From IMG/VR virus record IMGVR_UViG_2925897562_000001: a stretch of 64,000 nucleotides of DNA, one strand, 5' to 3'. The translations under genes were made by a program, and so were the position numbers. This DNA comes from a virus. Its lineage: Duplodnaviria; Heunggongvirae; Uroviricota; Caudoviricetes. Under the pieces are notes generated by a model. The model was not told where the DNA came from and did no database searches. It saw only the letters and a program-made list of their open reading frames with translations. Positions 5,769 through 21,068 of the stretch are shown here, piece after piece; positions within the stretch are counted from its first letter, which is position 1, and the number at the start of each line of letters is the position of its first letter.

Positions 5769-8700
5769 ATGAACAAGCTATCTATGGGGGTGTTTCGCTG
5801 TTCAAGTGTCAGCGAAATATTGAAATACATTAGGGCAATAACATCTCACCGAGCGCCGATTAAATACGGCGTGGAAAAGGTGGAAGGCAAAAGCTATGAC
5901 CGACTGCGCCGTGAGGCGAATCAGAAGGCGATAGATTTGCTTAATTCGCTGGTGGACGGCGCGACACTGACAGATGAACAGCGCCAGATCCTGGCTGGGT
6001 ACACCGGTGAAGGCGGCATTGGCGGGTCCGTCTCCGAATATTACACACCAAAGCCGATCGCTGAAGGTGTCTGGGAGATCATGAAGCTCTACGGCGCGGA
6101 CGTAGGTAACACTCTGGAACCATCGGCGGGAACCGGCGTTTTTAATGAGACAAAACCGGTTGGTACGGTGATGACCGCGACTGAGATCAGCAGTGTTTCC
6201 GGTCGTATAAACCAGCTGTTGCACCCGGAAGACAGCGTACAGATTTCTCCGTTCGAACAACTGGCTGTAAGCACGCCTAACGATTCATTCGACCATGTTG
6301 TGGGTAACGTTCCGTTCGGTGGTCGTGATAACACACGCAACATCGATAAGCCTTACGCAGAAGAAACGGACATGGGTTCTTACTTCATGCTCCGCATGCT
6401 GGACAAGATAAAGCCAGGCGGATTCATGTGCGTGATTGTGCCGCCGTCCATTGTTTCAGGTTCAAACATGAAGCGGTTACGCCTGCGCCTATCACGGAAA
6501 GCTGAATTTCTTGGTGCCCACCGCTTGCCTACCGGTACTTTTGACGCAAACGGGACCAGTACAGTTGTTGATGTGGTGCTGATGCGCAAACATCCGGCAG
6601 AGATGGCTGAGAAAATCCCCCTGGTGGATGAAAGCACTCTCGAATCGGCAAATGTGCTTTGGCCAACGTTTATTTCTGGCAAGTGGTTTGAAAAGGACGG
6701 CCGCCGGTTTGTTCATGGCACCCAGGAAAAGGGCTTCCAGGGGCGTATTGAGGTTCGTGCCGACGGTCAGATTGATAACCAGGCTCTTAAAGCGAAGCTG
6801 ATTCATCGTTTCGAAAGCCGTATCGACTGGTCTTTGCTCGATATGGCTGAACCGTCACCGACCGCAGACGTTGTTGGTGAAGGGGAAATGCGCCTGATTA
6901 ATGGCGTATGGCAAAAATATGCTGGTGGTCGCTGGATTGAAGCTGATGCCGGGAAGGAACTTAAGATCGATGCTGCCAGTTATGGCGCGGATAGCTGGGA
7001 GGCTCTTCAGCGTAACCTGACTACAACAGAAGGCCGTCTCGGCATGACATTTACCCAGATGGCAAATGTCCGCGATAAGTACACCACATCAATCAGCGAC
7101 GATATGGTGCAGCTGGTGGACTGGATTAACAGCCAGCCTGAAAAATACCGTGAACGCTTGTATCGCGGGGCGATGATTGGCCGGATGTTAATTGAATATC
7201 AGGACATGAAGGCCGCCGGGCATAGTGCTGAACAAATCGAACAGCAGCGCCTTTCTCTGGTATCCCGTTTGCAGGCAGAGATTGACCGTTTTGGTAACCC
7301 CGGTCGCGGTCCGATAGCGAAATTGTCGGGGAGCGGTGCGCGCGCCTGGTTTGCTTTCCGTGGTGCAATTAAGCTGGATGGCACTATTTCTGACGAGCTG
7401 ACAGGGAAGCTGGTTACGCATGATTCCAGCGCAAGTTATGACTCCACCAGCTATCAGGACACCCTGCGTTATCTCTATAGCGATCTCACCCGCGATCCAA
7501 TCCAGCTCGATGATTTCCGCCTTGCGTTTACCGGCGAACTGCCAGCCAGTGATGAAGAGTTGCTTAATTTATTGGCCAGCACCCCTGGTATTGCGGTTTC
7601 ACCGTATGGCGGGATTGTTCCGTTCGCCCGCGCCACCAGCGGCGACATTAACGAGATAGTGGCTCCAAAACAGGAATTCCTCGCCACACTCCCCGACGGT
7701 CCAGTAAAGAACAACGTCCTTAATCAGCTGGCAGCTATCGAAGAGAAGCGCATCAAGACGCCAGCAGAGAATATCCGGTTTAAGCTCAATAGCCGTTGGT
7801 TCGACCGTTCCGTCATTCTGGAATTTTTGCAGGAAAACGGCTATCCGGATCTGCGCTATGTGCAGTCAGTGCAGCTGGAAGGCGACGAAATGGTTTCTGA
7901 CACCTATCACGGTGGTGATGGTCTGTTCGTCGGGCACCGATACGGTGTCGTCCAGCGCAAGGATAAAGAAACAGGTGAGATTCGCTACGAGTGGGACCGT
8001 AAATCAGGTGAAAACGCGACCGGGTTCCCGGCACAGCTGGAAAAGTATCTCAATGGTGCGCGTATCGGTGGCAAAGATAGCGCGACGGCGAACGGCTACC
8101 GCGAGCAGATGGCACTGCTTGAGGACCAGTTCAATAAGTGGATCAAGACGCACGATCGCTACGATGAGCTGGTTGCCAAATACAACGATGTGTTCAATAG
8201 CAATATCCCGTATGAACACTCTGGCGATCCGCTTGGGTTGAAGGGATTAAGCGGTAAGCGCCAGCCATTTGATTACCAGAATAGCGAGGTGCGCCGACTG
8301 TCCGAAGATGGGCGCGGCATCCTGGGCTTCGGCACCGGGCTGGGTAAAACCACGACCGCGCTGGCGCTTGAGGCGTTCAACTATGAGAACGGTCGCTCCA
8401 CCCGTACTGCGTATGTAGTGCCTAAATCAGTGCTGGAAAACTGGTATTACGAAGCAAAAGAATTCCTGAGTGAAGAGGCATTCAGTAACTACCTGTTCGT
8501 CGGTCTTGATGTGCTGATGGATGGCGATCAGATTCGCCAGGTGCCGGTGCTCGATGAGAACGGTAAACCTGTTCTTGGTACTGATGGCACTCCAGTTATG
8601 CGCGATGCCTTAAAACTGGCAGATGAAGCCACTATCACGGCGCGGATGAACGCGATCCCGCACTCAAATTACCGTGCAGTCGTGTTTACCAAAGAACAAT

Positions 8701-11700
8701 ACGCCCGCATTCCGCTACGTGATGACACCGTAGATGAGCATGCACAGGATATGCTTTATGACTTCGTTGCCGCCGGACGCGTAGCCAGCGCAATGGACTC
8801 CGACTCCCACCGCAAAGAGGCCGCGCGTCGCCGGGTATTGTCGGAGTATTCAGATACCGGCACCGAAAAAGCAGAGAAGTATCCGTACTTTGAGGATATG
8901 GGCTTCGATAGTGTGATCGCTGACGAAGGTCACAACTACCGCAATAGCTATAAAAATGGTCGCGAAGCGTCACAACTGGCCTATCTGCCCACCAGCGCGG
9001 TGGCGCAATCGGCGCGAGATATGGCAATTAAAAACGCGTACCTGATGAAAAAGAATGGTGGGCGCGGGCCGGTTCTCCTGACTGCAACGCCAGTCGTTAA
9101 CACCCCGATCGATGCATACAACATGCTTTCTCATGTTCTGCCGAAGGAATACTGGCAGAACATGGGGATCTACGGTCCTGATGACTTCGTTAAATTCTTC
9201 GGCAAGACCAGGCTGGAAACGGTACAGAAAATTAGCGGTGAAGTTGAAGAAAAAATGGCGCTGGTGGGCTTTGAAAACCTTGATGCGCTGCGCGGTATAT
9301 TCCATCGCTGGGTAACGCTTAAAACGGCGGAAGACGTTAAGGATACCGTGGAGATCCCGGAGCTGGACGAACACCAGCAGGATGCACCACTTACTGAAGA
9401 ACAACTGGCGGCGTATGAAGAATTGCGTCAGCAGGCGGAAGCGGCGGCCAAAGCCAACAATGGCGTAACGACCTCGGTCAATGAAGACGGCGTGATTGAG
9501 CACGAGAAAGCCCGTCCGATCTTCTCAATAATCAGGGATATGGACCGCGTATGTACTGACATGGACCTGTACTATCGCCGGATCACCTATCGTTTCCTGC
9601 CGGAGTACGCCGATGCGGTGCAGCAGCTGGCGGACAGTTTGCCTAAACAAGCCACCAGCGAAGACGACGACAGTGATGATTCAATCACGCAGCAATCGCA
9701 ATACTCCCTGATAGATAAGGGCGAGTTTATTCAGTTGCAGGTTCCGGAAGCGTTCGAGCAGGAAGTGAATAAGCGCCTGGCCAGGTTTGGCATTGACGAA
9801 CAGACCGTAACTCACCCCGTTACGCCCAAATACGCGAAGCTGATTGCCACGCTGAAGGAGTTTTTCCCGGAAGGTAAGCAAATCATCTTCACCGATGAAA
9901 AAACGCAGCACCAGAAGCTCAAGCGCATTATCTGCAATGCTCTTAACCTTGAACCTTCAAAGGTGGGGATACTGAATGCTCAGACGGTTGCCGAGGCAGG
10001 TAAAACCGGTAAGAAACTGAAAGCGGTTAAACCGCCGAAAGAGTTACCGGATGAACCAACAGATGCACAGATAGCGAAATACAACGAGCAAATGGCTCTG
10101 TATGACGCCTATATCGCGCAGCAAAATGAAATGTCGTTGGGCGGTCTGGAAAAGATTGCAGCCGACTTCCAGGAGGGCCGGACTCCGATCATCATCTGCA
10201 ACAAAAAGGCAGAGGTGGGTATCAACCTGCATCGAGGAACGACTGACATCCATCATCTGACGTTGCCATGGACTCCAGCCAGTATTGCGCAACGAAACGG
10301 TCGCGGTGCCCGAGTTGGCTCCAACCGTGCAAGCGTTCGCGTTCACTACTACTGCGGCAAGGGGTCTTTCGATGAATACCGACTGAAGACGCTGAAGCGT
10401 AAAGCAGGCTGGATCTCCGATATCCTCCGTTCAGATAAGTCAGAAATGGAGAACGCCGACGCCAACGATATGATCGAAATGCAGATGTATACCGCGAAGG
10501 ATGACGGCGAACGTCTGGCAATGATGCAGGTTCAAATGGATAAGGCGAAAGCTGCGAAACGCGCTCGCCAGAAAGAACAGGCTACTATCGACCTTCAGAA
10601 CTACATCAAGGCGCAGCACGCAGCTGGTGAGGATGTGGAGGTACTTACCGCTGAATTGGAGCGAAGCAAAGCGGAACTTGAAAAGACCACCGCCGACGTC
10701 GCCAAATTCAAACAGGCGGTAATGGCCAAAGCAGCTGATAACGCAGACTGGAAAGCCCGCTGGGGTAGCGTCCATCACACAGACCGTATGTTGTTAGCAC
10801 AGTATCGCGCGTCGTTGAAAAGCGCCATTCAGCGCAAGGCTAATATCTCTCAGGCCATCTCCCGCTATGAGAAATTATTGAACCGTACTCAGAAGGCCGC
10901 GACGGATATCAAACGCCTGCGCCCGCTGGTGGAGGATGCAATAAATAAAGGCATTCTGGATGTTGATCCTGATCTGGTTAACCATGCGAATGAGTTCCTT
11001 GTTATCGGCGATCGCTCATGGCGTGTAGGCCAATACTATGATTGTGCCGGTGATATCGTTCGCATTAAGTCGCTGGACTTCGACAGCCAGCGCGCAGACG
11101 TGGAGATCATCTTTACCTTCAAAGGCACCAAATCGGGTAACTGGGATGTGAAGACGCTGGATAAACAGGTTGATGTAACTCCCGATGAAGATGCTGTTAT
11201 GCAGAAAATCAGTGGTGGCGTCTCCATCGCCGGGATTAACGACATCGTTTCCTGTGACGATTTCTACCGTTTCCAGCAGCGCGGCATGATCAAAATCACT
11301 GACTCATACGGCGTTCAGACTACAGAGTCAGGCTATAGCATTGATTTTGTTGGTACCTATACGGACCCACTGAAGCATGCGGTTTACCCGGATCGCCGTG
11401 ACAGCGCGCTGAAGTCGTCAATTGCAAAATGGGTGCTTGGTATGATGTCGGAAGGGAATAACCGCCAGATCCGTTCGGCAGAAACATTCCTGGTTGAACT
11501 GTTTGGCTCCAATTATGGCGATGTAATCGCGTCATACGGAGATACGCTATCCCCTGAAGCAATTCAGGAGAAAATAGCGGATGCGATCGCCAGAATGCCG
11601 GAAAAAACAAGCCAGGGGGCTACTCGTAACGGGGATTCTGAACTTGAAGTCACCAATGCCATTTTCGGTACCAATGAGTTCCGGGCGTCAGATTATGAGA

Positions 11701-12536
11701 TCACCACAGCACAGTTTGGCACCATTGGCATTTACAGCAATAAAGACGAGATCAAGCAGACAATGGACGCAGCAAGCGCGCGCATTGCAGCAGAACGGAA
11801 AGCCAATCTGAATCATGCAGTCGCCGCGCTGACTCAATCGTGGGTAACAGCAATCAGGAAGGCCGCCACCACAGGGAAAATCACACCGGCAATTGCGGAT
11901 GTCGTAAACGACGGCTCTAAATTTATGGATGCCTATCAAATGGATGCGGTGCAGTTGCCATCAGCCTATGGGCAACTCAGCTATCGCATGACCTACAACC
12001 TGGTATCAATGTTTACCGACCTTGCCATCCTTGGGCTGGTGGACCTTAACGAGGTTACGCCGGAATTGCTCAGCATGCGCAAGAATCATGTGGAGATATT
12101 GCACAGAATTAACACGGTACTTGCCGGGCGCACCGATGAAGAGAAACAGGCAGACGCTGATCGGATAAACCTGGCCCTTGGCAACATCACGGAGGAAGAA
12201 ATTGCCGCCAGAAACGAGAAACAAGAAGAGTTATCATCAATACAGGGTGATGCCACCAGCATAGCTCAGTCTCTTGGTCTGAATTATCGCGTATCCACCG
12301 CCGACCTGAAGATGATGTACGCACCAAAATTCGCCGCTGGCGAGGTATTTGGGCTTCAGGAAGCCTCCGGCATGAAAGGGGTTCTTTTCCGTGCGAAAGA
12401 CGCAATCAAGGCGAAATTCGGCGCTCGCTGGTTGCCAGCGAAGGCGAAGAACAGCGACTTCCCAGGTAACTGGTGGATTATCGAGACAAAACACAACGTG
12501 GCGGACGTTCTGGCCGTCATCCAACAATACGCATAA
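5769..12536 (+). CDS. darB: DarB-like defence-against-restriction protein (N6-adenine methyltransferase domain fused to SF2 helicase)
   Basis: 2255 aa; AdoMet motif LEPSAGTGVF and NVPF(GG) motif IV near N-terminus; Walker A GFGTGLGKTT and DEGH box (VIADEGHNYRN) mid-protein. Confidence 0.85.
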   Translation: MNKLSMGVFRCSSVSEILKYIRAITSHRAPIKYGVEKVEGKSYDRLRREANQKAIDLLNSLVDGATLTDEQRQILAGYTGEGGIGGSVSEYYTPKPIAEGVWEIMKLYGADVGNTLEPSAGTGVFNETKPVGTVMTATEISSVSGRINQLLHPEDSVQISPFEQLAVSTPNDSFDHVVGNVPFGGRDNTRNIDKPYAEETDMGSYFMLRMLDKIKPGGFMCVIVPPSIVSGSNMKRLRLRLSRKAEFLGAHRLPTGTFDANGTSTVVDVVLMRKHPAEMAEKIPLVDESTLESANVLWPTFISGKWFEKDGRRFVHGTQEKGFQGRIEVRADGQIDNQALKAKLIHRFESRIDWSLLDMAEPSPTADVVGEGEMRLINGVWQKYAGGRWIEADAGKELKIDAASYGADSWEALQRNLTTTEGRLGMTFTQMANVRDKYTTSISDDMVQLVDWINSQPEKYRERLYRGAMIGRMLIEYQDMKAAGHSAEQIEQQRLSLVSRLQAEIDRFGNPGRGPIAKLSGSGARAWFAFRGAIKLDGTISDELTGKLVTHDSSASYDSTSYQDTLRYLYSDLTRDPIQLDDFRLAFTGELPASDEELLNLLASTPGIAVSPYGGIVPFARATSGDINEIVAPKQEFLATLPDGPVKNNVLNQLAAIEEKRIKTPAENIRFKLNSRWFDRSVILEFLQENGYPDLRYVQSVQLEGDEMVSDTYHGGDGLFVGHRYGVVQRKDKETGEIRYEWDRKSGENATGFPAQLEKYLNGARIGGKDSATANGYREQMALLEDQFNKWIKTHDRYDELVAKYNDVFNSNIPYEHSGDPLGLKGLSGKRQPFDYQNSEVRRLSEDGRGILGFGTGLGKTTTALALEAFNYENGRSTRTAYVVPKSVLENWYYEAKEFLSEEAFSNYLFVGLDVLMDGDQIRQVPVLDENGKPVLGTDGTPVMRDALKLADEATITARMNAIPHSNYRAVVFTKEQYARIPLRDDTVDEHAQDMLYDFVAAGRVASAMDSDSHRKEAARRRVLSEYSDTGTEKAEKYPYFEDMGFDSVIADEGHNYRNSYKNGREASQLAYLPTSAVAQSARDMAIKNAYLMKKNGGRGPVLLTATPVVNTPIDAYNMLSHVLPKEYWQNMGIYGPDDFVKFFGKTRLETVQKISGEVEEKMALVGFENLDALRGIFHRWVTLKTAEDVKDTVEIPELDEHQQDAPLTEEQLAAYEELRQQAEAAAKANNGVTTSVNEDGVIEHEKARPIFSIIRDMDRVCTDMDLYYRRITYRFLPEYADAVQQLADSLPKQATSEDDDSDDSITQQSQYSLIDKGEFIQLQVPEAFEQEVNKRLARFGIDEQTVTHPVTPKYAKLIATLKEFFPEGKQIIFTDEKTQHQKLKRIICNALNLEPSKVGILNAQTVAEAGKTGKKLKAVKPPKELPDEPTDAQIAKYNEQMALYDAYIAQQNEMSLGGLEKIAADFQEGRTPIIICNKKAEVGINLHRGTTDIHHLTLPWTPASIAQRNGRGARVGSNRASVRVHYYCGKGSFDEYRLKTLKRKAGWISDILRSDKSEMENADANDMIEMQMYTAKDDGERLAMMQVQMDKAKAAKRARQKEQATIDLQNYIKAQHAAGEDVEVLTAELERSKAELEKTTADVAKFKQAVMAKAADNADWKARWGSVHHTDRMLLAQYRASLKSAIQRKANISQAISRYEKLLNRTQKAATDIKRLRPLVEDAINKGILDVDPDLVNHANEFLVIGDRSWRVGQYYDCAGDIVRIKSLDFDSQRADVEIIFTFKGTKSGNWDVKTLDKQVDVTPDEDAVMQKISGGVSIAGINDIVSCDDFYRFQQRGMIKITDSYGVQTTESGYSIDFVGTYTDPLKHAVYPDRRDSALKSSIAKWVLGMMSEGNNRQIRSAETFLVELFGSNYGDVIASYGDTLSPEAIQEKIADAIARMPEKTSQGATRNGDSELEVTNAIFGTNEFRASDYEITTAQFGTIGIYSNKDEIKQTMDAASARIAAERKANLNHAVAALTQSWVTAIRKAATTGKITPAIADVVNDGSKFMDAYQMDAVQLPSAYGQLSYRMTYNLVSMFTDLAILGLVDLNEVTPELLSMRKNHVEILHRINTVLAGRTDEEKQADADRINLALGNITEEEIAARNEKQEELSSIQGDATSIAQSLGLNYRVSTADLKMMYAPKFAAGEVFGLQEASGMKGVLFRAKDAIKAKFGARWLPAKAKNSDFPGNWWIIETKHNVADVLAVIQQYA

Positions 12537-12569: not shown

Positions 12570-13010
12570 ATGGCCACACTATCTGATACAATAAAACCGA
12601 ATAAAACATATCTTGAGGCGGTACTCCGTACAGCGTTGTTAGGAAAGACAGAAGACGAATACGTTGATTTCTTCCTGTCAGGGCTACGCGGGCGATTACT
12701 GAAAAATCCCCGCCTGTACCGCAGCTATGGTCCATACTGGCCGGAAATTAAAAAATTATTACTGGAGCGCGGTTATGGTAATTTCGGTCGTCTCGTTGAC
12801 CGTGACGTTCGCAAAATTTACCGTTATGACCGCCCGGCGCTAACACTCATAGCCGCGACGCTCTACAGCCAGGAGCGTTTTGATAATGGTCAGATATACT
12901 CAGCCTGGCATTTACTGCCAGTGCCTGAAGAAGTTGACGACCAGGACTATGAGTTTGAGTCTTACGATTTGGAAGTTGAAGCCTTGGCACAGGCTGGAGA
13001 GAAAACTTGA
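12570..13010 (+). CDS. hypothetical protein immediately downstream of darB (ddrA-like)
   Basis: 146 aa, ATG 12570, same strand, 34 bp after darB stop. Confidence 0.5.
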   Translation: MATLSDTIKPNKTYLEAVLRTALLGKTEDEYVDFFLSGLRGRLLKNPRLYRSYGPYWPEIKKLLLERGYGNFGRLVDRDVRKIYRYDRPALTLIAATLYSQERFDNGQIYSAWHLLPVPEEVDDQDYEFESYDLEVEALAQAGEKT

Positions 13011-13255
13011 AAAAGCGATACTACACAGTAAAGCATGGGACGCTACGAGCATTACAAGAGTTTGCTGATAAGCATAACGTTGAGGTGCGCAGGGAAGGGG
13101 GAAGTAAAGCTCTGCGCATGTACCGCCCGGACGGGAAATGGCGGACGGTGGTCGATTTCAAAACTAACAGTGTTCCCCAGGGCGTCCGCGATCGGGCATT
13201 CGAAGAATGGGAGCAGATCATCATAGATAACGCATTGCTCCTGAATGCAGATTGA
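13007..13255 (+). CDS. hypothetical small protein (ddrB-like)
   Basis: 82 aa, TTG start overlapping the previous stop (translational coupling). Confidence 0.45.
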   Translation: MKKRYYTVKHGTLRALQEFADKHNVEVRREGGSKALRMYRPDGKWRTVVDFKTNSVPQGVRDRAFEEWEQIIIDNALLLNAD

Positions 13256-13257
13256 CA

Positions 13258-13284
13258 ATTTTGCCCGGAATTACCGGGCAAAAT
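13258..13284. terminator. bidirectional intrinsic terminator between convergent ddrB-like and RSH genes
   Basis: TTTTGCCCGG-AATTA-CCGGGCAAAA, perfect 10-bp stem with A/T runs on both sides. Confidence 0.6.
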
Positions 13285-13291
13285 TAAGCAA

Positions 13292-14428
13292 CTATCCTTC
13301 GTTACGAAGATGCTTATCTAAGAATTTTGTAAACTGGTTTGTTGAGCCAAAATAGTTGGGGTAGGCTTTTTTTAGTGACTTAATGTTATCTGTAGCAACG
13401 AGAACAGATATCAATACATTAGGATTAGAATCGTCTTTATTTAAGGCCTCAAGGGCTTCATCTGCTTCTTTTGTTTTAAATGCGCGAACAGACACTAGGA
13501 ACATTTTTTTGTTTTTTGTATTGGGCTTGTTTTCTGCATTTCTCATTGTTACTAAGTAATGCCCCTTATGATTTTTTGGCAACTTCTTAATCAAATTCGC
13601 GTCAGAAGTTAAATTTAAGGCGATGGTGTATGTGCTTAGTTTCCTCCGTACAGATAAAGTCCGTTCCAGCTCTTTAAGCTCGCCTTCATACTGAGATACA
13701 ACTAGCTCATCAAGAGTGCAGGCTTTTTCGTCGTGCGCTACAAGACATCCGGCTAGATAGAAAAATCGTCTCCATTCTGGATGCCCTTCACTTGAAGTTT
13801 TCAGCTTGATACCTTCAAGGGTATCAATTATTTCAAGGCTGGTAGCCCAAGCATGCTGCAATTGAGTTCTTAACTGTATCTCAATCTTTGTTTTTCGCCA
13901 CGGATATTGATCCTCTTTCTGATCGAAGCAACTGTATGCAAGGTGGATTCCACTATAGCCGCTGTCTTTGGGAGTAAGATAATCATACTCTTTAACAATC
14001 CTATGAACAGATTTGCTTTTTAAAAGACGTTCCTTTAGCTGTATCAACTGGTCTAAGTTTCTGACAATGGCCCTACATCCGCCAACGTCCTGCATCCGTG
14101 TTAATTTAATTGCATTGCTAGTTCTGCCTCCATCAAGACTAGGACGCTCTAGTTTATCTATTATGGTAGAAAGTCGCTTAAGTCTTCTTGCAACGAGAAT
14201 CTTTTTGTCCTTGTCAACCTTAGCAGCTGCTCTTGCTAAATGATTTTTCATGAGCATTAATGGATAAAGATGCAGCTCACGGAAATTTTGTATCATTTCA
14301 ATAGATTGCTGCCTTTCTTCGTCACTACACCCGTGCCTTATCAATTGAGCAGCCCTATCAATTTGAGATTTTGAATATTTCAACTTGCATTTTTGACTTT
14401 GATAAACTTCATTCCCCATTGCTTTCAT
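13292..14428 (-). CDS. RelA/SpoT-homologue synthetase-domain protein; CapRel-like fused toxSAS toxin-antitoxin candidate
   Basis: 378 aa; nucleotidyltransferase motifs GGRTSNAIK, DVGGCRAIV, YSGIHLAY and EIQLRTQLQHAWA; ~170-aa C-terminal extension after the synthetase fold. Confidence 0.75.
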   Translation of the reverse strand: MKAMGNEVYQSQKCKLKYSKSQIDRAAQLIRHGCSDEERQQSIEMIQNFRELHLYPLMLMKNHLARAAAKVDKDKKILVARRLKRLSTIIDKLERPSLDGGRTSNAIKLTRMQDVGGCRAIVRNLDQLIQLKERLLKSKSVHRIVKEYDYLTPKDSGYSGIHLAYSCFDQKEDQYPWRKTKIEIQLRTQLQHAWATSLEIIDTLEGIKLKTSSEGHPEWRRFFYLAGCLVAHDEKACTLDELVVSQYEGELKELERTLSVRRKLSTYTIALNLTSDANLIKKLPKNHKGHYLVTMRNAENKPNTKNKKMFLVSVRAFKTKEADEALEALNKDDSNPNVLISVLVATDNIKSLKKAYPNYFGSTNQFTKFLDKHLRNEG

Positions 14429-14521
14429 CCATTTTAAATGATTTACATGCTGTTACATCTAATGATAAAGCGGTTAGAAAATCAATGGAGAATGTAACCA
14501 CAAAATTACTGTATGTAATTG

Positions 14522-15163
14522 TTAAAAATAATTATGCTTGCCTGTTAATACCCCTTTCGGCACTTTTTTTTGTTCCAGTATCTGGGTGCCCAGAATTATG
14601 TTAATCAGTGGACTTAGTAACGATGGTTCTTGGCGGGCCTCAACTTCTCCAGCCATTGCCCTGATGTAGTCGGCGCTGGCAACGTTGTTGTATTCCGTCG
14701 CAAAGCAACATAGTAACGTCAGAACATGCTCTGTCGTTATTTCGCTCCAGTTGATGTTGAAAAATTCATCGCCTTTTTTATCGTGTTCGGAATCGAAGAT
14801 GCTTTGGTGGAGAATGTATTTGCCGGATTCCTTGCGCGGTAACTTGATTGCTTTCTGGCGTTCCAGCTCCTTATAAATCTGCATTGCCTCAATTAGTACC
14901 GGCCTGCCGTTCATGAAGGGATCGCGCAACCTTACACGCTGGCCAACTCGACCAGTAATAAAGCTGTTTTCCTCTTCCACCAGCACGATAAAACCCTTTT
15001 CCTCTTTTTCTCGCAATTCGCGCAGCAGCTGGAGTTCCATATCGCGGCGGCGTTCAGGGTAGCTGGTCCGCTCAGCCATTATCAGCTCGTTATTGATCCA
15101 TGCAGCAGTCATTGACGCCGGTTTGCCGACGCTCATCGAAACAACGCATATTTTCTTATCCAT
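14522..15163 (-). CDS. hypothetical protein, 213 aa (possibly Mat-like; function unknown)
   Basis: ATG 15163 with strong SD (AGGGGG); the longer ORF-track frame to 15310 lacks an SD; between ref and the RSH gene on the same strand. Confidence 0.55.
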   Translation of the reverse strand: MDKKICVVSMSVGKPASMTAAWINNELIMAERTSYPERRRDMELQLLRELREKEEKGFIVLVEEENSFITGRVGQRVRLRDPFMNGRPVLIEAMQIYKELERQKAIKLPRKESGKYILHQSIFDSEHDKKGDEFFNINWSEITTEHVLTLLCCFATEYNNVASADYIRAMAGEVEARQEPSLLSPLINIILGTQILEQKKVPKGVLTGKHNYF

Positions 15164-15284
15164 AGCGCCCCCTACAAAAAAGAAAAGCCACCAGCGGCGG
15201 CTTAGCAATACAACTGAAGGTAGCGCCCGGTACTCAGACTGTGCCGTCCATGGAATATTTGAAAAGGGATCCATCCGTACCGGG

Positions 15285-15312
15285 CATGTGATGATTCTGA
15301 CTGAAGTCACTT
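15285..15312 (-). promoter_or_regulatory. candidate late-promoter box (AAGTGACTTC) upstream of the 213-aa gene
   Basis: same box family as upstream of prt and the head gene; -10 element weak. Confidence 0.25.
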
Positions 15313-15352
15313 GTCAGTTGTCAATCATTTATCATTAAAAATAATATATTTA

Positions 15353-15913
15353 TTAGTGCATGATGTTTGCCATCTCATAGGCGTCAGCCAGTAACTCCAT
15401 CTCTGACTTGTTCAGCAAGGTGAATTCTTTCTTGCCTCCAACCACACCATCGGCATGAACAGGGACCAGCCAGGGGTATTTTGCTCTTACTTCAGCCGGT
15501 GCTGCATGCTGGTGGTGCCATCTGCAAAGGGGCAATTGCTTTTTGTGACAACCCGGCGCGGTACGACCGGAGATATGGTGCAGAGACACCTCTTCAGATA
15601 TTACTCCATGCATGTAGCAGGCAATGCAGGGGAGAGTGCCAAGAGCATTGGCGATAGTCTGTTCCTCCTCCGTCGGTGTTCGCCCCTTCAAGCCACGAGA
15701 TTTTATTTTTACCGCACTTTTCCGCGTTTTGCTGGCTGGTGGGCGCTCTTTCTGTTTAGCGATACGGCGGTCGATAGAATCCCGCATTTTCTGATATTGC
15801 GATTCTCGCCAGGCGGGGTCAGCCAACTTTTCCCGTTGCCGAGCGATCGCTCGTTCTCTGGCTGCCTTCTGCCACTCGCGGCGCTGTTCAAGTTTTTGTT
15901 CGATTGTTTTCAT
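15353..15913 (-). CDS. ref: Ref recombination-enhancement HNH endonuclease
   Basis: 186 aa from ATG 15913 (MKTIEQKLEQRREW...), basic N-terminal arm, HNH-type Cys/His cluster; adjacent to cre. Confidence 0.9.
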   Translation of the reverse strand: MKTIEQKLEQRREWQKAARERAIARQREKLADPAWRESQYQKMRDSIDRRIAKQKERPPASKTRKSAVKIKSRGLKGRTPTEEEQTIANALGTLPCIACYMHGVISEEVSLHHISGRTAPGCHKKQLPLCRWHHQHAAPAEVRAKYPWLVPVHADGVVGGKKEFTLLNKSEMELLADAYEMANIMH

Positions 15914-16522: not shown

Positions 16523-17554
16523 CTAATTGCCATCTTCCAGCAGGCGCACCATTGCCCCTGTTTCACTATCCAGGTTACGGATATAGTTCATGACAATATT
16601 TACATTGGTCCAGCCACCAGCTTGCATGATCTCCGGTATTGAAACTCCAGCGCGGGCCATATCTCGCGCTGCTCCGACACGGGCACTGTGTCCAGACCAG
16701 GCCAGGTATCTCTGACCAGAGTCATCCTTAGCGCCGTAAATCAATCGATGAGTTGCTTCAAAAATCCCTTCCAGGGCGCGAGTTGATAGCTGGCTGGTGG
16801 CAGATGGCGCGGCAACACCATTTTTTCTGACCCGGCAAAACAGGTAGTTATTCGGATCATCAGCTACACCAGAGACAGAAATCCATCGCTCGACCAGTTT
16901 AGTTACCCCCAGGCTAAGTGCCTTCTCTACACCTGCGGTGCTAACCAGCGTTTTCGTTCTGCCAATATGGATTAACATTCTCCCACCGTCAGTACGTGAG
17001 ATATCTTTAACCCTGATCCTGGCAATTTCTGCTATACGTAGCAGGGTATTATAAGCAATCCCAAGAAATGCCAGATTACGTATATCCTGGCAGCGATCGC
17101 TATTTTCCATGAGTGAACGAACCTGGTCGAAATCAGTGCGTTCGAACGCCAATGCCTGTTTTGCACGTTCACCGGCATCAACGTTTTCTTTTCGAATCCG
17201 CCGCATGACCAGTGAAACAGCATTGCTGTCACTTGGTCGTGGCAGCCCGGACCGACGATGAAGCATGTTTAGCTGGCCCAAATGTTGCTGGATAGTTTTT
17301 ACTGCCAGACCGCGCGCCTGAAGATATAGAAGATAATCGCGAACATCTTCAGGTTCTGCGGGAAACCATTTCCGGTTATTCAACTTGCACCATGCCGCCC
17401 ACGACCGGCAAACGGACAGAAGCATTTTCCAGGTATGCTCAGAAAACGCCTGGCGATCCCTGAACATGTCCATCAGGTTCTTGCGAACCTCATCACTCGT
17501 TGCATCGACCGGTAATGCAGGCAAATTTTGGTGTACGGTCAGTAAATTGGACAT
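16523..17554 (-). CDS. cre: Cre tyrosine site-specific recombinase
   Basis: 343 aa, MSNLLTVHQNLPALPVDATSDEVRKNLMDMFRDRQAFSEHTWKMLLSVCRSWAAWC...; cognate loxP 418 bp upstream. Confidence 0.97.
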   Translation of the reverse strand: MSNLLTVHQNLPALPVDATSDEVRKNLMDMFRDRQAFSEHTWKMLLSVCRSWAAWCKLNNRKWFPAEPEDVRDYLLYLQARGLAVKTIQQHLGQLNMLHRRSGLPRPSDSNAVSLVMRRIRKENVDAGERAKQALAFERTDFDQVRSLMENSDRCQDIRNLAFLGIAYNTLLRIAEIARIRVKDISRTDGGRMLIHIGRTKTLVSTAGVEKALSLGVTKLVERWISVSGVADDPNNYLFCRVRKNGVAAPSATSQLSTRALEGIFEATHRLIYGAKDDSGQRYLAWSGHSARVGAARDMARAGVSIPEIMQAGGWTNVNIVMNYIRNLDSETGAMVRLLEDGN

Positions 17555-19583: not shown

Positions 19584-21068
19584 TTATTCATTAAGCCATG
19601 CCAGAGCTTCATCAACCTGCGCTTCGTCTTCGACGCTAAGCACTTCATCCTGGGGAACATAATCCGCCAGCATAGCGAAACAATATGTATCCCAATGGTC
19701 TGGTGAGTGCAGGTTGAGTTTTTTCTTCATATCCTCCTTACTCATCACCTTCCATTGACCTGCGGAGTTAATCCCTACAGGGATTTTCGACGCTTCCTCA
19801 ATAGTTTCATTACCCTTATCCAGTCTCATACGACCAGATTTTACGGCCTCTGCGGCTTGAACGTTGGCATAAGCACGTTTATCAAAGTACAGGCTCTTAT
19901 CTTCACGGCTATGCATCTTTTTACCCCAGCGTATACGCTGTACGGTAATACCATAATACTCGTACATCAGATCCGCCGTTGCTTTACCCAGCCCATCGCC
20001 GTCTATCGCTATGGTGATATTTGGGAATCGCTCAGGATTACATTCTGCGAAAATTTTGGCGGCAAGCTGCGTTTCTGTAACGTCTGTGTATTCCAGCATT
20101 CGATAGTTGATTACACGGCGTTTATTTCTCTGGCCGGACACCATCATGATATTGATAACGGACTTATCCCGTCCCGTACCACCAGCAACGTCCACACATG
20201 CAAGCCAGCCCCATCCTTTGGCAATCTTGACTTTCCGCCGCGTCGCACGTTCAACCTCATCACGTCCAAGAAGGAAGCCATCCTGTGATTTAGGGAATAG
20301 TCCGCGTACCTTAATCATGTACATAGGGTTATCACGCCCGCCGTACTCCGCCAGCTTCATTTTGATAAATGCTGGCGTTACCAGCGGTGATTCCTCACTG
20401 TTAAGCGTGATCGCCGTATAAACGCCATCAGGGTTACCAGGACGCTTGGCCAGTTTATGGTGAGTATCGTAGAAATAGCCGCTTGGGCGTGTAGGCTGTG
20501 ACAGTAATAAGATGCGGTTATCCTGTCCGGTAAGAGCACCGGTGATGATACCGAAAGCTCTATCACTGACACCGGAGGCTTCATCGATAATATACAGAAG
20601 ATGATCTGCGTGTTCACCGGCGAGAGCTTCTTCACTTCCCAGACGAAAGCCCTTCGGTACTACAGTCCATACACCTTTACCAGTAACCTCATAGAAAGCG
20701 GTTTCTGTCAGAACAAAATAATCAGCAAGCCATGGAAAACGGCTGGTGGCAGTAGCCCAGTTTATCTTGATGTACTTGAATATACCGGTCATTACCTGCT
20801 GAATTTTGTTCGCAACGATAATGGCGCGGGCACCGGGATACATGATTATGAACAACATGATCATGATAGAAGTCATGTCTGATTTCCCGGTACCGTGACC
20901 AGACGAAACAGATGTCTTGCTACCCTGTTCCTGCACAGACTCAATAATCAGATCCTGCTGCCAGGTAGGTGTTTTGCCGAACAAAACATCAGCGGCAGCA
21001 ATCCAGTCATAACGATATAGCGCCACCAGCTCGCGCCAACGTGGATCCGTTACGCAACTTCTGGCCAT
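19584..21068 (-). CDS. pacB: terminase large subunit PacB
   Basis: 494 aa; adjacent to pacA and the pac site. Confidence 0.85.

What the first reader, a model, noticed from the sequence alone, without database searches (positions are those of the whole stretch)
14522..15163. 213-aa unknown protein co-oriented with the RSH gene, downstream of ref
It has a strong SD, no recognisable motif, and is separated from the RSH gene by only 93 bp on the same strand. It could be the P1 Mat homologue (synteny with ref), or it could be a partner of the RSH protein such as a trigger-sensing or antitoxin component. A late-promoter-like box (AAGTGACTTC, 15285-15312) lies upstream.
Basis: inference. Interest (0 to 1): 0.5.

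Follow-up and report, generated by a model that had tools for sequence, protein, structure and literature searches.

The report
P1 Mat gene, not RSH partner
The 213-aa ORF is the long-known phage P1 backbone gene mat ("maturation control"), not a partner of the neighbouring RelA/SpoT (CapRel-type) defence gene, which is swappable cargo in a hotspot next to it; as a by-product, Mat is predicted to have the fold of a terminase nuclease domain, a new lead on how it works.

Summary
The ORF is real and its coordinates are correct (14522-15163, minus strand, 213 aa, 93 bp upstream of the RSH gene). It is P1 Mat: 96% amino-acid identity to P1's annotated Mat, with P1's Omat/Pmat/LPmat control region upstream. 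Mat sits between ref and lxc in hundreds of P1-like elements, but only about 10-16% carry the RSH gene. The same mat-lxc gap is otherwise empty (RCS47) or holds EcoPI res/mod (P1), SIR2, DUF2971, PIN-like, GNAT-like or JukA genes. The RSH protein is 74% identical to CapRel-SJ46, a published single-gene fused toxin-antitoxin that defends without Mat.

New here:
- The true start is the 213-aa one. P1's 250-aa annotation is probably too long.
- In distant relatives the gene order is pacB-mat-26-25-7-24-6-5.

Best reading: Mat is a non-canonical, probably non-catalytic terminase-nuclease-like morphogenesis factor. The gene is already known, so interest is low to moderate.

The parts
14522..15163 (-). 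mat (maturation control), 213-aa form; P1 backbone gene. Predicted stand-alone fold resembling the large-terminase nuclease domain (RNase H-like).
15164..15287 (-). mat 5' leader, annotated as coding in the P1 reference (ATG at 15274). Contains a terminator-like hairpin plus T-run at 15203-15176.
   Evidence: N-terminal extensions are not conserved between relatives. 1-nt indels in SJ46 and 673R5. Hairpin found; the leader as a whole is not significantly stable (z = -1.2).
15294..15362 (-). mat control region: C1 operator Omat (15362-15345, overlapping the ref stop), sigma-70 Pmat -35 TTGACA (15324-15319), late promoter LPmat -22 box AAGTGACTT (15312-15304), and the shared -10 CAGAAT (15299-15294).
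   Evidence: The operator, -35, -22 and -10 elements are identical to those annotated in NC_005856, as mapped through the alignment. SJ46 has one substitution just 3' of the -22 box.
15353..15913 (-). ref (RecA-dependent nuclease), the upstream backbone neighbour.
   Evidence: Pfam RecA_dep_nuc 8e-48 and phrog_2321. P1 annotation.
13292..14428 (-). RSH gene: a CapRel-type fused toxSAS toxin-antitoxin (PADLOC PDC-S33). AT-rich hotspot cargo, not part of the mat unit.
   Evidence: 74% aa identity to SJ46 J46_0058 (CapRel-SJ46), with the G-loop Tyr conserved. PDC-S33 6.7e-86. RelA_SpoT 3e-12. GC 0.32-0.43 against 0.46-0.54 for the backbone.
13007..13255 (+). lxc, the right-hand backbone border of the mat-lxc hotspot.
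   Evidence: phrog_2160. P1, RCS47 and SJ46 annotations.
19584..21068 (-). pacB, the large terminase, with its own intact nuclease motifs. In distant relatives this gene lies immediately upstream of mat.
   Evidence: phrog_2 TerL over residues 33-474. D293/D301, D356/D358 and D457/D460 motifs invariant in 4 diverse homologues. pacB-mat adjacency in L093, L095 and L097.
38452..43203 (+). P1 genes 26-25-7-24-6-5 (baseplate/tail operon). In distant relatives this block lies immediately downstream of mat.
   Evidence: PHROG tail/baseplate hits. RCS47 gene names. tblastn synteny in 9 of 10 independent distant loci.

Best explanation
The ORF is the phage P1 backbone gene mat, in a P1-like phage or phage-plasmid. 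It is an independent transcription unit under P1's known dual control: a sigma-70 promoter repressed by C1, plus a late promoter. It lies next to the RSH gene only because the RSH gene occupies the variable mat-lxc cargo hotspot.

On mechanism (inferred): Mat is a small cytoplasmic morphogenesis factor built on the RNase H-like fold of the large-terminase nuclease domain. It has lost the motif-I catalytic aspartate, and in the P1 type the motif-III position is Asn. It most likely acts non-catalytically, or through a non-canonical site, at the DNA-packaging or particle-completion step alongside the PacAB terminase. One possibility is that it modulates or terminates PacB's cutting or its release, so that filled heads can mature and join tails. 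This fits its ancestral position directly after pacB and before the baseplate operon.

Shown here: identity with Mat, backbone status, independence from the RSH gene, the fold, the residue pattern and the synteny. Inferred: the step at which Mat acts and that it is non-catalytic.
For: Identity: 95% nt and 96% aa to P1 mat, with the Omat, Pmat and LPmat elements identical.

Backbone status: 702 plasmids match the ref-mat-RSH-lxc query but only 71 contain the RSH part. All 80 IMG/VR loci have Mat, 13 have an RSH gene, 10 have an empty gap and the rest carry about 9 other cargos. RCS47 has mat abutting lxc.

RSH autonomy: CapRel-SJ46 is a fused toxin-antitoxin that works with only 100-200 bp of upstream DNA.

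Residues: position 9 at the end of beta1 is S/T/C in 73 of 81 sequences. The acidic pair at 63/64 is conserved in 78 and 80 of 81. Positions 124, 128 and 138 alternate between D and N.

PacB: it has its own full set of nuclease motifs.

Synteny: pacB then mat with overlapping stop and start codons in L093, L095 and L097. mat then gene 26 in 9 of 10 independent distant loci, with called coordinates overlapping by 1-8 nt in most.

Genetics: P1 annotations call mat 'maturation control', and it is listed as essential on the basis of Lehnherr 2001 in PMC10695390.
Against: - The functional step is inferred only from fold and gene order. No residue-level superposition could be inspected.
- Sequence profiles do not link Mat to PacB (hhalign probability about 1%) or to any Pfam terminase family.
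- The more universal synteny is with the baseplate operon (9 of 10 loci), not with pacB (3 loci). That points equally to a tail or baseplate role.
- CRISPRi knock-down of mat lowered EOP only to 0.28.
- The near-universal acidic pair at 63/64 leaves a non-canonical catalytic activity possible.
Confidence: 0.45

Rival explanations
1. Mat is a tail or baseplate assembly factor (an assembly catalyst or chaperone, or a minor component) for the 26-25-7-24-6-5 module. Its terminase-like fold would then be an evolutionary relic unrelated to packaging.
For: A gene-26 homologue (baseplate wedge, phrog_1269) lies directly downstream of mat in 9 of 10 independent distant loci, and the called mat and gene-26 coordinates overlap by 1-8 nt in most of them, which suggests translational coupling. 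mat has a P1 late promoter like the structural operons. In the CRISPRi screen mat, 25 and 26 were all 'missed' essential genes.
Against: I know of no baseplate or tail assembly protein with a TerL-nuclease fold (my own knowledge, not tested). In P1 itself mat is separated from the operon by tens of kb without apparent harm. mat also has an early, C1-controlled sigma-70 promoter, which is unusual for tail genes. pacB-mat coupling occurs in three distant lineages.
Confidence: 0.3
2. Mat is an active nuclease with a non-canonical active site, for example a debranching or junction-resolving enzyme, or an auxiliary headful-cutting enzyme, needed to make replicated DNA packageable.
For: It has an RNase H, TerL or RuvC-like fold. 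An acidic pair sits after beta4 where these enzymes place a catalytic carboxylate, and it is conserved in 78-80 of 81 sequences. D is the majority residue at positions 124, 128 and 138 across the wider family. Other phages need such resolvases for packaging (T4 gp49, T7 gp3; established knowledge).
Against: The beta1 catalytic Asp is replaced by S/T/C in 73 of 81 sequences. Positions 124, 128 and 138 are Asn in about a quarter of members, and the P1 type has N138. In RuvC and TerL, loss of the beta1 Asp abolishes cleavage (established knowledge). PacB already supplies a complete nuclease.
Confidence: 0.15
3. Mat is a functional partner of the adjacent RSH/CapRel gene, acting as antitoxin, trigger sensor or regulator.
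For: The only support is co-orientation and the 93-bp spacing. No terminator-like site was found on the minus strand between the two genes, so some read-through is possible.
Against: - Mat is present in all P1-like elements, while the RSH gene is in only about 10-16%.
- RCS47 and P1 have Mat without an RSH gene.
- The Mat family extends to distant phages, where it sits beside terminase and baseplate genes and no RSH gene is seen.
- CapRel is a self-contained fused toxin-antitoxin that works without Mat.
- Other cargos in the same gap lie in either orientation.
- Pmat is repressed by C1 in lysogens, whereas a prophage defence gene must be expressed there (inference).
- The GC content of the two genes differs.
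Confidence: 0.02

Closest known systems
Phage P1 Mat (gene 1, 'maturation control'; YP_006475, NC_005856 2716..3468)
   Same: 96% identical protein. Same position after ref. Identical Omat, Pmat and LPmat elements. Same family (phrog_1837).
   Different: The last ~24 residues differ, because the recombination border of the hotspot lies inside the 3' end of mat. The P1 record annotates 37 extra N-terminal codons that are probably not translated.
Nuclease (C-terminal, RNase H-like) domain of large terminases (T4 gp17, SPP1 G2P, P22 gp2, Sf6 gp2, G20c, E217, HK97, HCMV UL89)
RuvC-family Holliday junction resolvases (bacterial RuvC, poxvirus A22-like, Cce1/MOC1)
   Different: Lower structural scores than the terminase domains. 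The catalytic D of beta1 is absent.
CapRel-SJ46 (fused toxSAS toxin-antitoxin of Salmonella phage SJ46), which is the neighbouring gene and not the ORF itself
   Same: The window's RSH protein is 74% identical, has the same length class, occupies the same mat-lxc location, and keeps the G-loop Tyr.
   Different: 26% of its sequence diverges, so its trigger specificity may differ. This has no bearing on Mat.

Membership tests
P1 Mat / phrog_1837 | Full-length sequence homology to P1 Mat | tested here: met
   96% aa identity over 250 aligned residues. phrog_1837 E 1.4e-112 over positions 1-213 of the protein and 1-212 of the profile.
P1 Mat / phrog_1837 | Position downstream of ref, with the Omat, Pmat and LPmat control region | tested here: met
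   Alignment to P1 2625-2840 shows the annotated elements are identical.
P1 Mat / phrog_1837 | Particle-maturation phenotype of null mutants | not testable with these tools
   Known only from annotation and citation (Lehnherr 2001). The primary papers are not held.
Large-terminase nuclease domain (RNase H-like) | Fold: a five-stranded mixed sheet with flanking helices, as in TerL C-terminal domains | tested here: met
Large-terminase nuclease domain (RNase H-like) | Catalytic Asp at the end of beta1 (motif I) | tested here: not met
   Position 9 is S, T or C in 73 of 81 family members, with D or E in 1. PacB has VD293VA at the corresponding motif. The register was inferred from secondary structure and motif comparison, not from a superposition.
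Large-terminase nuclease domain (RNase H-like) | Acidic residue after beta4 (motif II) | tested here: met
   Positions 63 and 64 are D or E in 78 and 80 of 81 sequences.
Large-terminase nuclease domain (RNase H-like) | C-terminal catalytic Asp (motif III) | tested here: inconclusive
   The candidate positions 124, 128 and 138 are D in 38-50 and N in 21-22 of 81 sequences. The window protein has D124, D128 and N138.
Large-terminase nuclease domain (RNase H-like) | Fusion to an N-terminal packaging ATPase, or detectable sequence homology to TerL | tested here: not met
   The protein is 213 aa with no Walker A motif. No Pfam hit in any of 81 members. hhalign against the PacB family gives about 1% probability.
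toxSAS antitoxin or CapRel accessory component | Co-occurrence with the RSH gene across genomes | tested here: not met
   The RSH gene is present in 71 of 702 plasmids and 13 of 80 viral loci that carry mat. No RSH gene appears in the distant Mat contexts.
toxSAS antitoxin or CapRel accessory component | The RSH gene requires it for neutralisation or sensing | tested here: not met
   Published work shows CapRel-SJ46 is a fused toxin-antitoxin. It was cloned with 100-200 bp of upstream DNA, is non-toxic, and defends MG1655. No PADLOC hit for Mat.

The most novel reading that the evidence does not exclude
Mat defines an unrecognised class of phage morphogenesis factor. It would be a stand-alone, catalytically degenerate copy of the terminase nuclease fold, ancestrally encoded between the large-terminase gene and the baseplate operon and translationally coupled to both. 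It would act as a non-catalytic regulator or adaptor of PacAB-type terminases, for instance by controlling the headful cut or terminase release, or by linking the end of packaging to tail joining. This would explain the 40-year-old 'particle maturation' phenotype of P1 gene 1.
Probability: 0.3. Interest if true: 0.55.

Novelty: already known. Interest (0 to 1): 0.27.

Why it matters
For the scan, this ORF should be filed as P1 backbone (mat). The RSH gene next to it should be treated as a self-contained CapRel-type defence gene sitting in a mat-lxc cargo hotspot, so there is no new two-gene system here.

Three by-products are worth keeping:
- The P1 reference annotation of mat probably starts 37 codons too early.
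- The mat-lxc gap is a rich, easily mined defence hotspot in P1-like phage-plasmids, with at least 11 alternative cargos including several candidate systems.
- Mat is genetically defined and listed as essential, yet its mechanism is unknown. The predicted terminase-nuclease-like fold and the ancestral pacB-mat-26 gene order give concrete experiments for a classical model phage used everywhere for transduction.

Tried and rejected
- Pfam, NCBIfam and PADLOC scans of Mat gave no hits. A Pfam scan of all 81 family members also gave none.
- A profile search of the PDB by sequence gave nothing significant.
- hhalign of the Mat family against PacB, and against a 4-sequence PacB family alignment, showed no relationship. 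The only match was a spurious alignment of 'VLVDE' to the Walker B motif.
- The first structure model, from 14 close sequences, was mediocre (pLDDT 67) and was replaced.
- The primary Mat papers (Lehnherr 2001, Lobocka 2004) are not held in the library. The P1 virion and assembly paper does not mention mat. The phage-plasmid recombination paper does not describe this hotspot.
- The search for related loci with the 81-sequence alignment failed because no stretch was conserved enough. With a 10-sequence alignment it returned only close P1-like loci, which I then used for the cargo census instead.
- The afdb50 fold library was unavailable.
- The leader hairpin was considered as an attenuator, but the leader as a whole is not unusually stable (z = -1.2), so it is only noted.
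- The idea that Mat supplies a nuclease missing from PacB was rejected, because PacB has all three canonical motifs.

Full report
**1. Observation**

The window is a P1-like (Punavirus) phage or phage-plasmid. Around the finding the gene order is cre (16523-17554, -), ref (15353-15913, -), the ORF in question (14522-15163, -), an RSH gene (13292-14428, -), lxc (13007-13255, +), ulx (12570-13010, +) and darB (5769-12536, +).

The 'late-promoter-like box' is base-for-base the annotated -22 box (AAGTGACTT, 15312-15304) and -10 (CAGAAT, 15299-15294) of P1's LPmat. It sits together with the Pmat -35 (TTGACA, 15324-15319) and the C1 operator Omat.

**2. Identity**

The ORF's DNA matches the gene annotated mat in P1, P7, RCS47, SJ46 and other Punaviruses at 94-99.5% identity. 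The protein is 96% identical to P1 Mat. It has no Pfam, NCBIfam or PADLOC match, but it matches phrog_1837 over its full length; that family is labelled 'unknown function'.

P1's record annotates a 250-aa product that starts 37 codons upstream, at window 15274. Three observations favour the 213-aa start, which RCS47 and SJ46 also use:
- MDKKIC is invariant down to 40% identity, and the start stays recognisable down to about 20% identity.
- The N-terminal extensions of the longer database entries are unrelated to one another.
- SJ46 and vB_EcoM-673R5 each carry a 1-nt indel between the two ATGs, which would frameshift the long form.

**3. Is it a partner of the RSH gene? No.**

*Distribution.* A query spanning ref-mat-RSH-lxc matches 702 PLSDB plasmids, but only 71 cover the RSH part. 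The others carry SIR2, GNAT, PIN, DUF2971 or DUF4145 genes, or nothing, in its place. In 80 IMG/VR P1-like loci Mat is always present. The mat-lxc gap falls into discrete classes:

| Gap class | Loci |
|---|---|
| Empty, 36-46 bp | 10 |
| ~594 bp | 1 |
| ~880-920 bp, GNAT-like | 10 |
| ~1055 bp, PIN-like (PDC-S34) | 5 |
| 1203 bp, DUF2971 (PDC-S31) | 10 |
| 1273 bp, the window's RSH type | 3, plus 1 truncated locus |
| 1278 bp, CapRel-SJ46 type | 9 |
| ~1410 bp, SIR2 (PDC-S25) | 16 |
| 1705 bp, unidentified 346-aa ORF | 3 |
| ~3570 bp, includes JukA | 3 |
| ~5090 bp, res/mod | 7, plus 1 truncated locus |

In P1 itself the gap holds EcoPI res/mod plus IS5, and in RCS47 mat abuts lxc directly. 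Cargo genes lie in either orientation. The RSH gene is AT-rich (GC 0.32-0.43) compared with the backbone (0.46-0.54).

*The RSH gene is self-contained.* It is 74% identical to SJ46 J46_0058, which lies in the same position, and it keeps the G-loop tyrosine. It also matches the PADLOC model PDC-S33. CapRel-SJ46 is published as a single-ORF fused toxin-antitoxin whose C-terminal domain is both antitoxin and capsid sensor. It was cloned with only 100-200 bp of upstream DNA into MG1655, where it was non-toxic and protective (PMC9712102).

*Expression logic (inference).* Pmat is repressed by C1 in lysogens, whereas a prophage defence gene has to be expressed there.

**4. What Mat itself looks like**

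A profile search of 1.84 billion representative proteins found 142 clusters of mostly 200-225-aa proteins, so the family reaches well beyond P1. With an 81-sequence alignment, AlphaFold2 gives a confident model with pLDDT 90.8 and pTM 0.78.

All three structure searches agree on the fold:
- Foldseek against the PDB: every significant hit is a large-terminase nuclease domain (G20c, P22, E217, D6E, SPP1, T4 gp17).
- The viral structure library is likewise dominated by large terminases.

At sequence level there is no detectable link to PacB or to any Pfam terminase family.

The catalytic set is incomplete:
- The residue at the end of beta1, where RNase H-fold nucleases carry an essential Asp, is Ser, Thr or Cys in 73 of 81 members.
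- An acidic pair after beta4 (positions 63/64) is conserved in 78 and 80 of 81.
- Candidate motif-III positions (124, 128, 138) alternate between Asp and Asn, and the P1 type has N138.

The register is inferred from secondary structure and motif comparison. I could not inspect a superposition.

The phage's own large terminase, PacB (19584-21068, -), matches the TerL PHROG over residues 33-474. It keeps all three canonical motifs, and they are invariant in four diverse homologues: VD293VA..GRD301, IAID356GD358G and SPD457xWD460. So Mat is an extra, degenerate copy of the fold and not a missing nuclease.

**5. Gene order in distant relatives**

I examined ten independent loci that encode Mat homologues of 21-56% identity.
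- In 9 of 10, the gene directly downstream is a homologue of P1 gene 26. It is followed by 25-7-24-6-5, the baseplate/tail operon, which in this window lies at 38452-43203.
- In most of them the called mat and gene-26 coordinates overlap by 1-8 nt.
- In three of the most divergent loci (L093, L095, L097) the gene directly upstream, again with overlapping coordinates, is a pacB homologue.
- In L089 the order is pacA-pacB-[c1-cre-...-ref]-mat-26-25-7-24-6-5.

The ancestral arrangement therefore appears to be pacA-pacB-mat-baseplate operon. In P1 proper the immunity/cre/ref block and later rearrangements have isolated mat.

**6. Mechanism**

Literature access was limited. P1 annotations call the gene 'maturation control'. 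The CRISPRi essentiality map lists it as essential from the literature (Lehnherr 2001), but it was 'missed' by knock-down, with EOP 0.28.

My best-supported reading (confidence about 0.45) is that Mat is a non-canonical, probably non-catalytic protein of the terminase-nuclease fold. It would act with PacAB at the packaging or particle-completion step.

The main rival (about 0.3) is a baseplate or tail assembly role, suggested by the more universal linkage to gene 26. An active non-canonical nuclease is less likely (about 0.15). The RSH-partner idea is effectively excluded (about 0.02).

**7. Novelty and verdict**

The feature as flagged is an already-known, annotated P1 backbone gene, and the proposed link to the RSH gene is wrong. 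The fold assignment, the residue pattern, the corrected start and the ancestral synteny are, as far as the searchable literature shows, not described. They give testable hypotheses for an old, mechanistically unexplained gene. That justifies a modest score and not a high one.

Noticed in passing
window 15176-15203 (- strand): There is a terminator-like hairpin (AAGCCGCC-GCU-GGUGGCUU) followed by UUCUUUUUU in the mat leader. It lies between Pmat/LPmat and the ATG at 15163 and is not annotated in the P1 record. It could be an attenuator, but the leader as a whole is not unusually stable (z = -1.2).
   Followed up: partly
window 15164-15274; P1 NC_005856 2716-2826: The P1 reference annotation of mat (250 aa) probably starts 37 codons too early. 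The extension is not conserved in relatives and is frameshifted by 1-nt indels in SJ46 and 673R5.
   Followed up: yes
window 13256-14521 (mat-lxc gap); loci L009-L088: The gap between mat and lxc is a cargo hotspot with at least 11 alternative contents across P1-like elements: empty, a 132-aa lipoprotein-like ORF, GNAT-like, PIN-like (PDC-S34), DUF2971 (PDC-S31), two CapRel types (PDC-S33), SIR2 (PDC-S25), an unidentified 346-aa ORF, a JukA-containing block, and EcoPI res/mod. I found no description of it in the papers searched.
   Followed up: partly
window 14522-14650: The left recombination border of the hotspot lies inside the 3' end of mat. DNA homology to P1 breaks about 55 nt before the stop. 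Mat residues ~170-200 are hypervariable between lineages, yet the extreme C-terminal P..G.LTG motif is kept, which suggests a docking peptide on a flexible tail (pLDDT < 50).
   Followed up: partly
window 13292-14428 (-): The RSH gene is a CapRel variant only 74% identical to the characterised CapRel-SJ46, with the G-loop Tyr conserved, so its phage-trigger specificity may differ. The start codon is probably M4 of the mechanical ORF (ATG at 14419), by comparison with SJ46.
   Followed up: partly
window 37479-38057 (-): This is PmgM (192 aa, phrog_2363). It shows partial PHROG matches to Holliday-junction resolvase and endonuclease families over residues ~103-176, so it may be an unrecognised nuclease among P1's 'putative morphogenetic' genes.
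   Followed up: no
L002 (ON470615.2, phage vB_EcoM-673R5) 5001-6842: This GenBank record splits both mat and the RelA/SpoT gene into two CDS each, although the DNA is 99.5% identical to the window. These are probably homopolymer sequencing errors and not real pseudogenes.
   Followed up: no
L090/L091 (bacterial chromosome contigs, GCA_053082105.1): A Mat homologue plus homologues of genes 26, 25 and 7 sit among ordinary chromosomal genes (gal operon, MFS transporter). No PacB, C1, Cre or Ref homologue was detected in the ~18-kb loci, so this looks like a decaying prophage remnant or a domesticated tail-like module.
   Followed up: no
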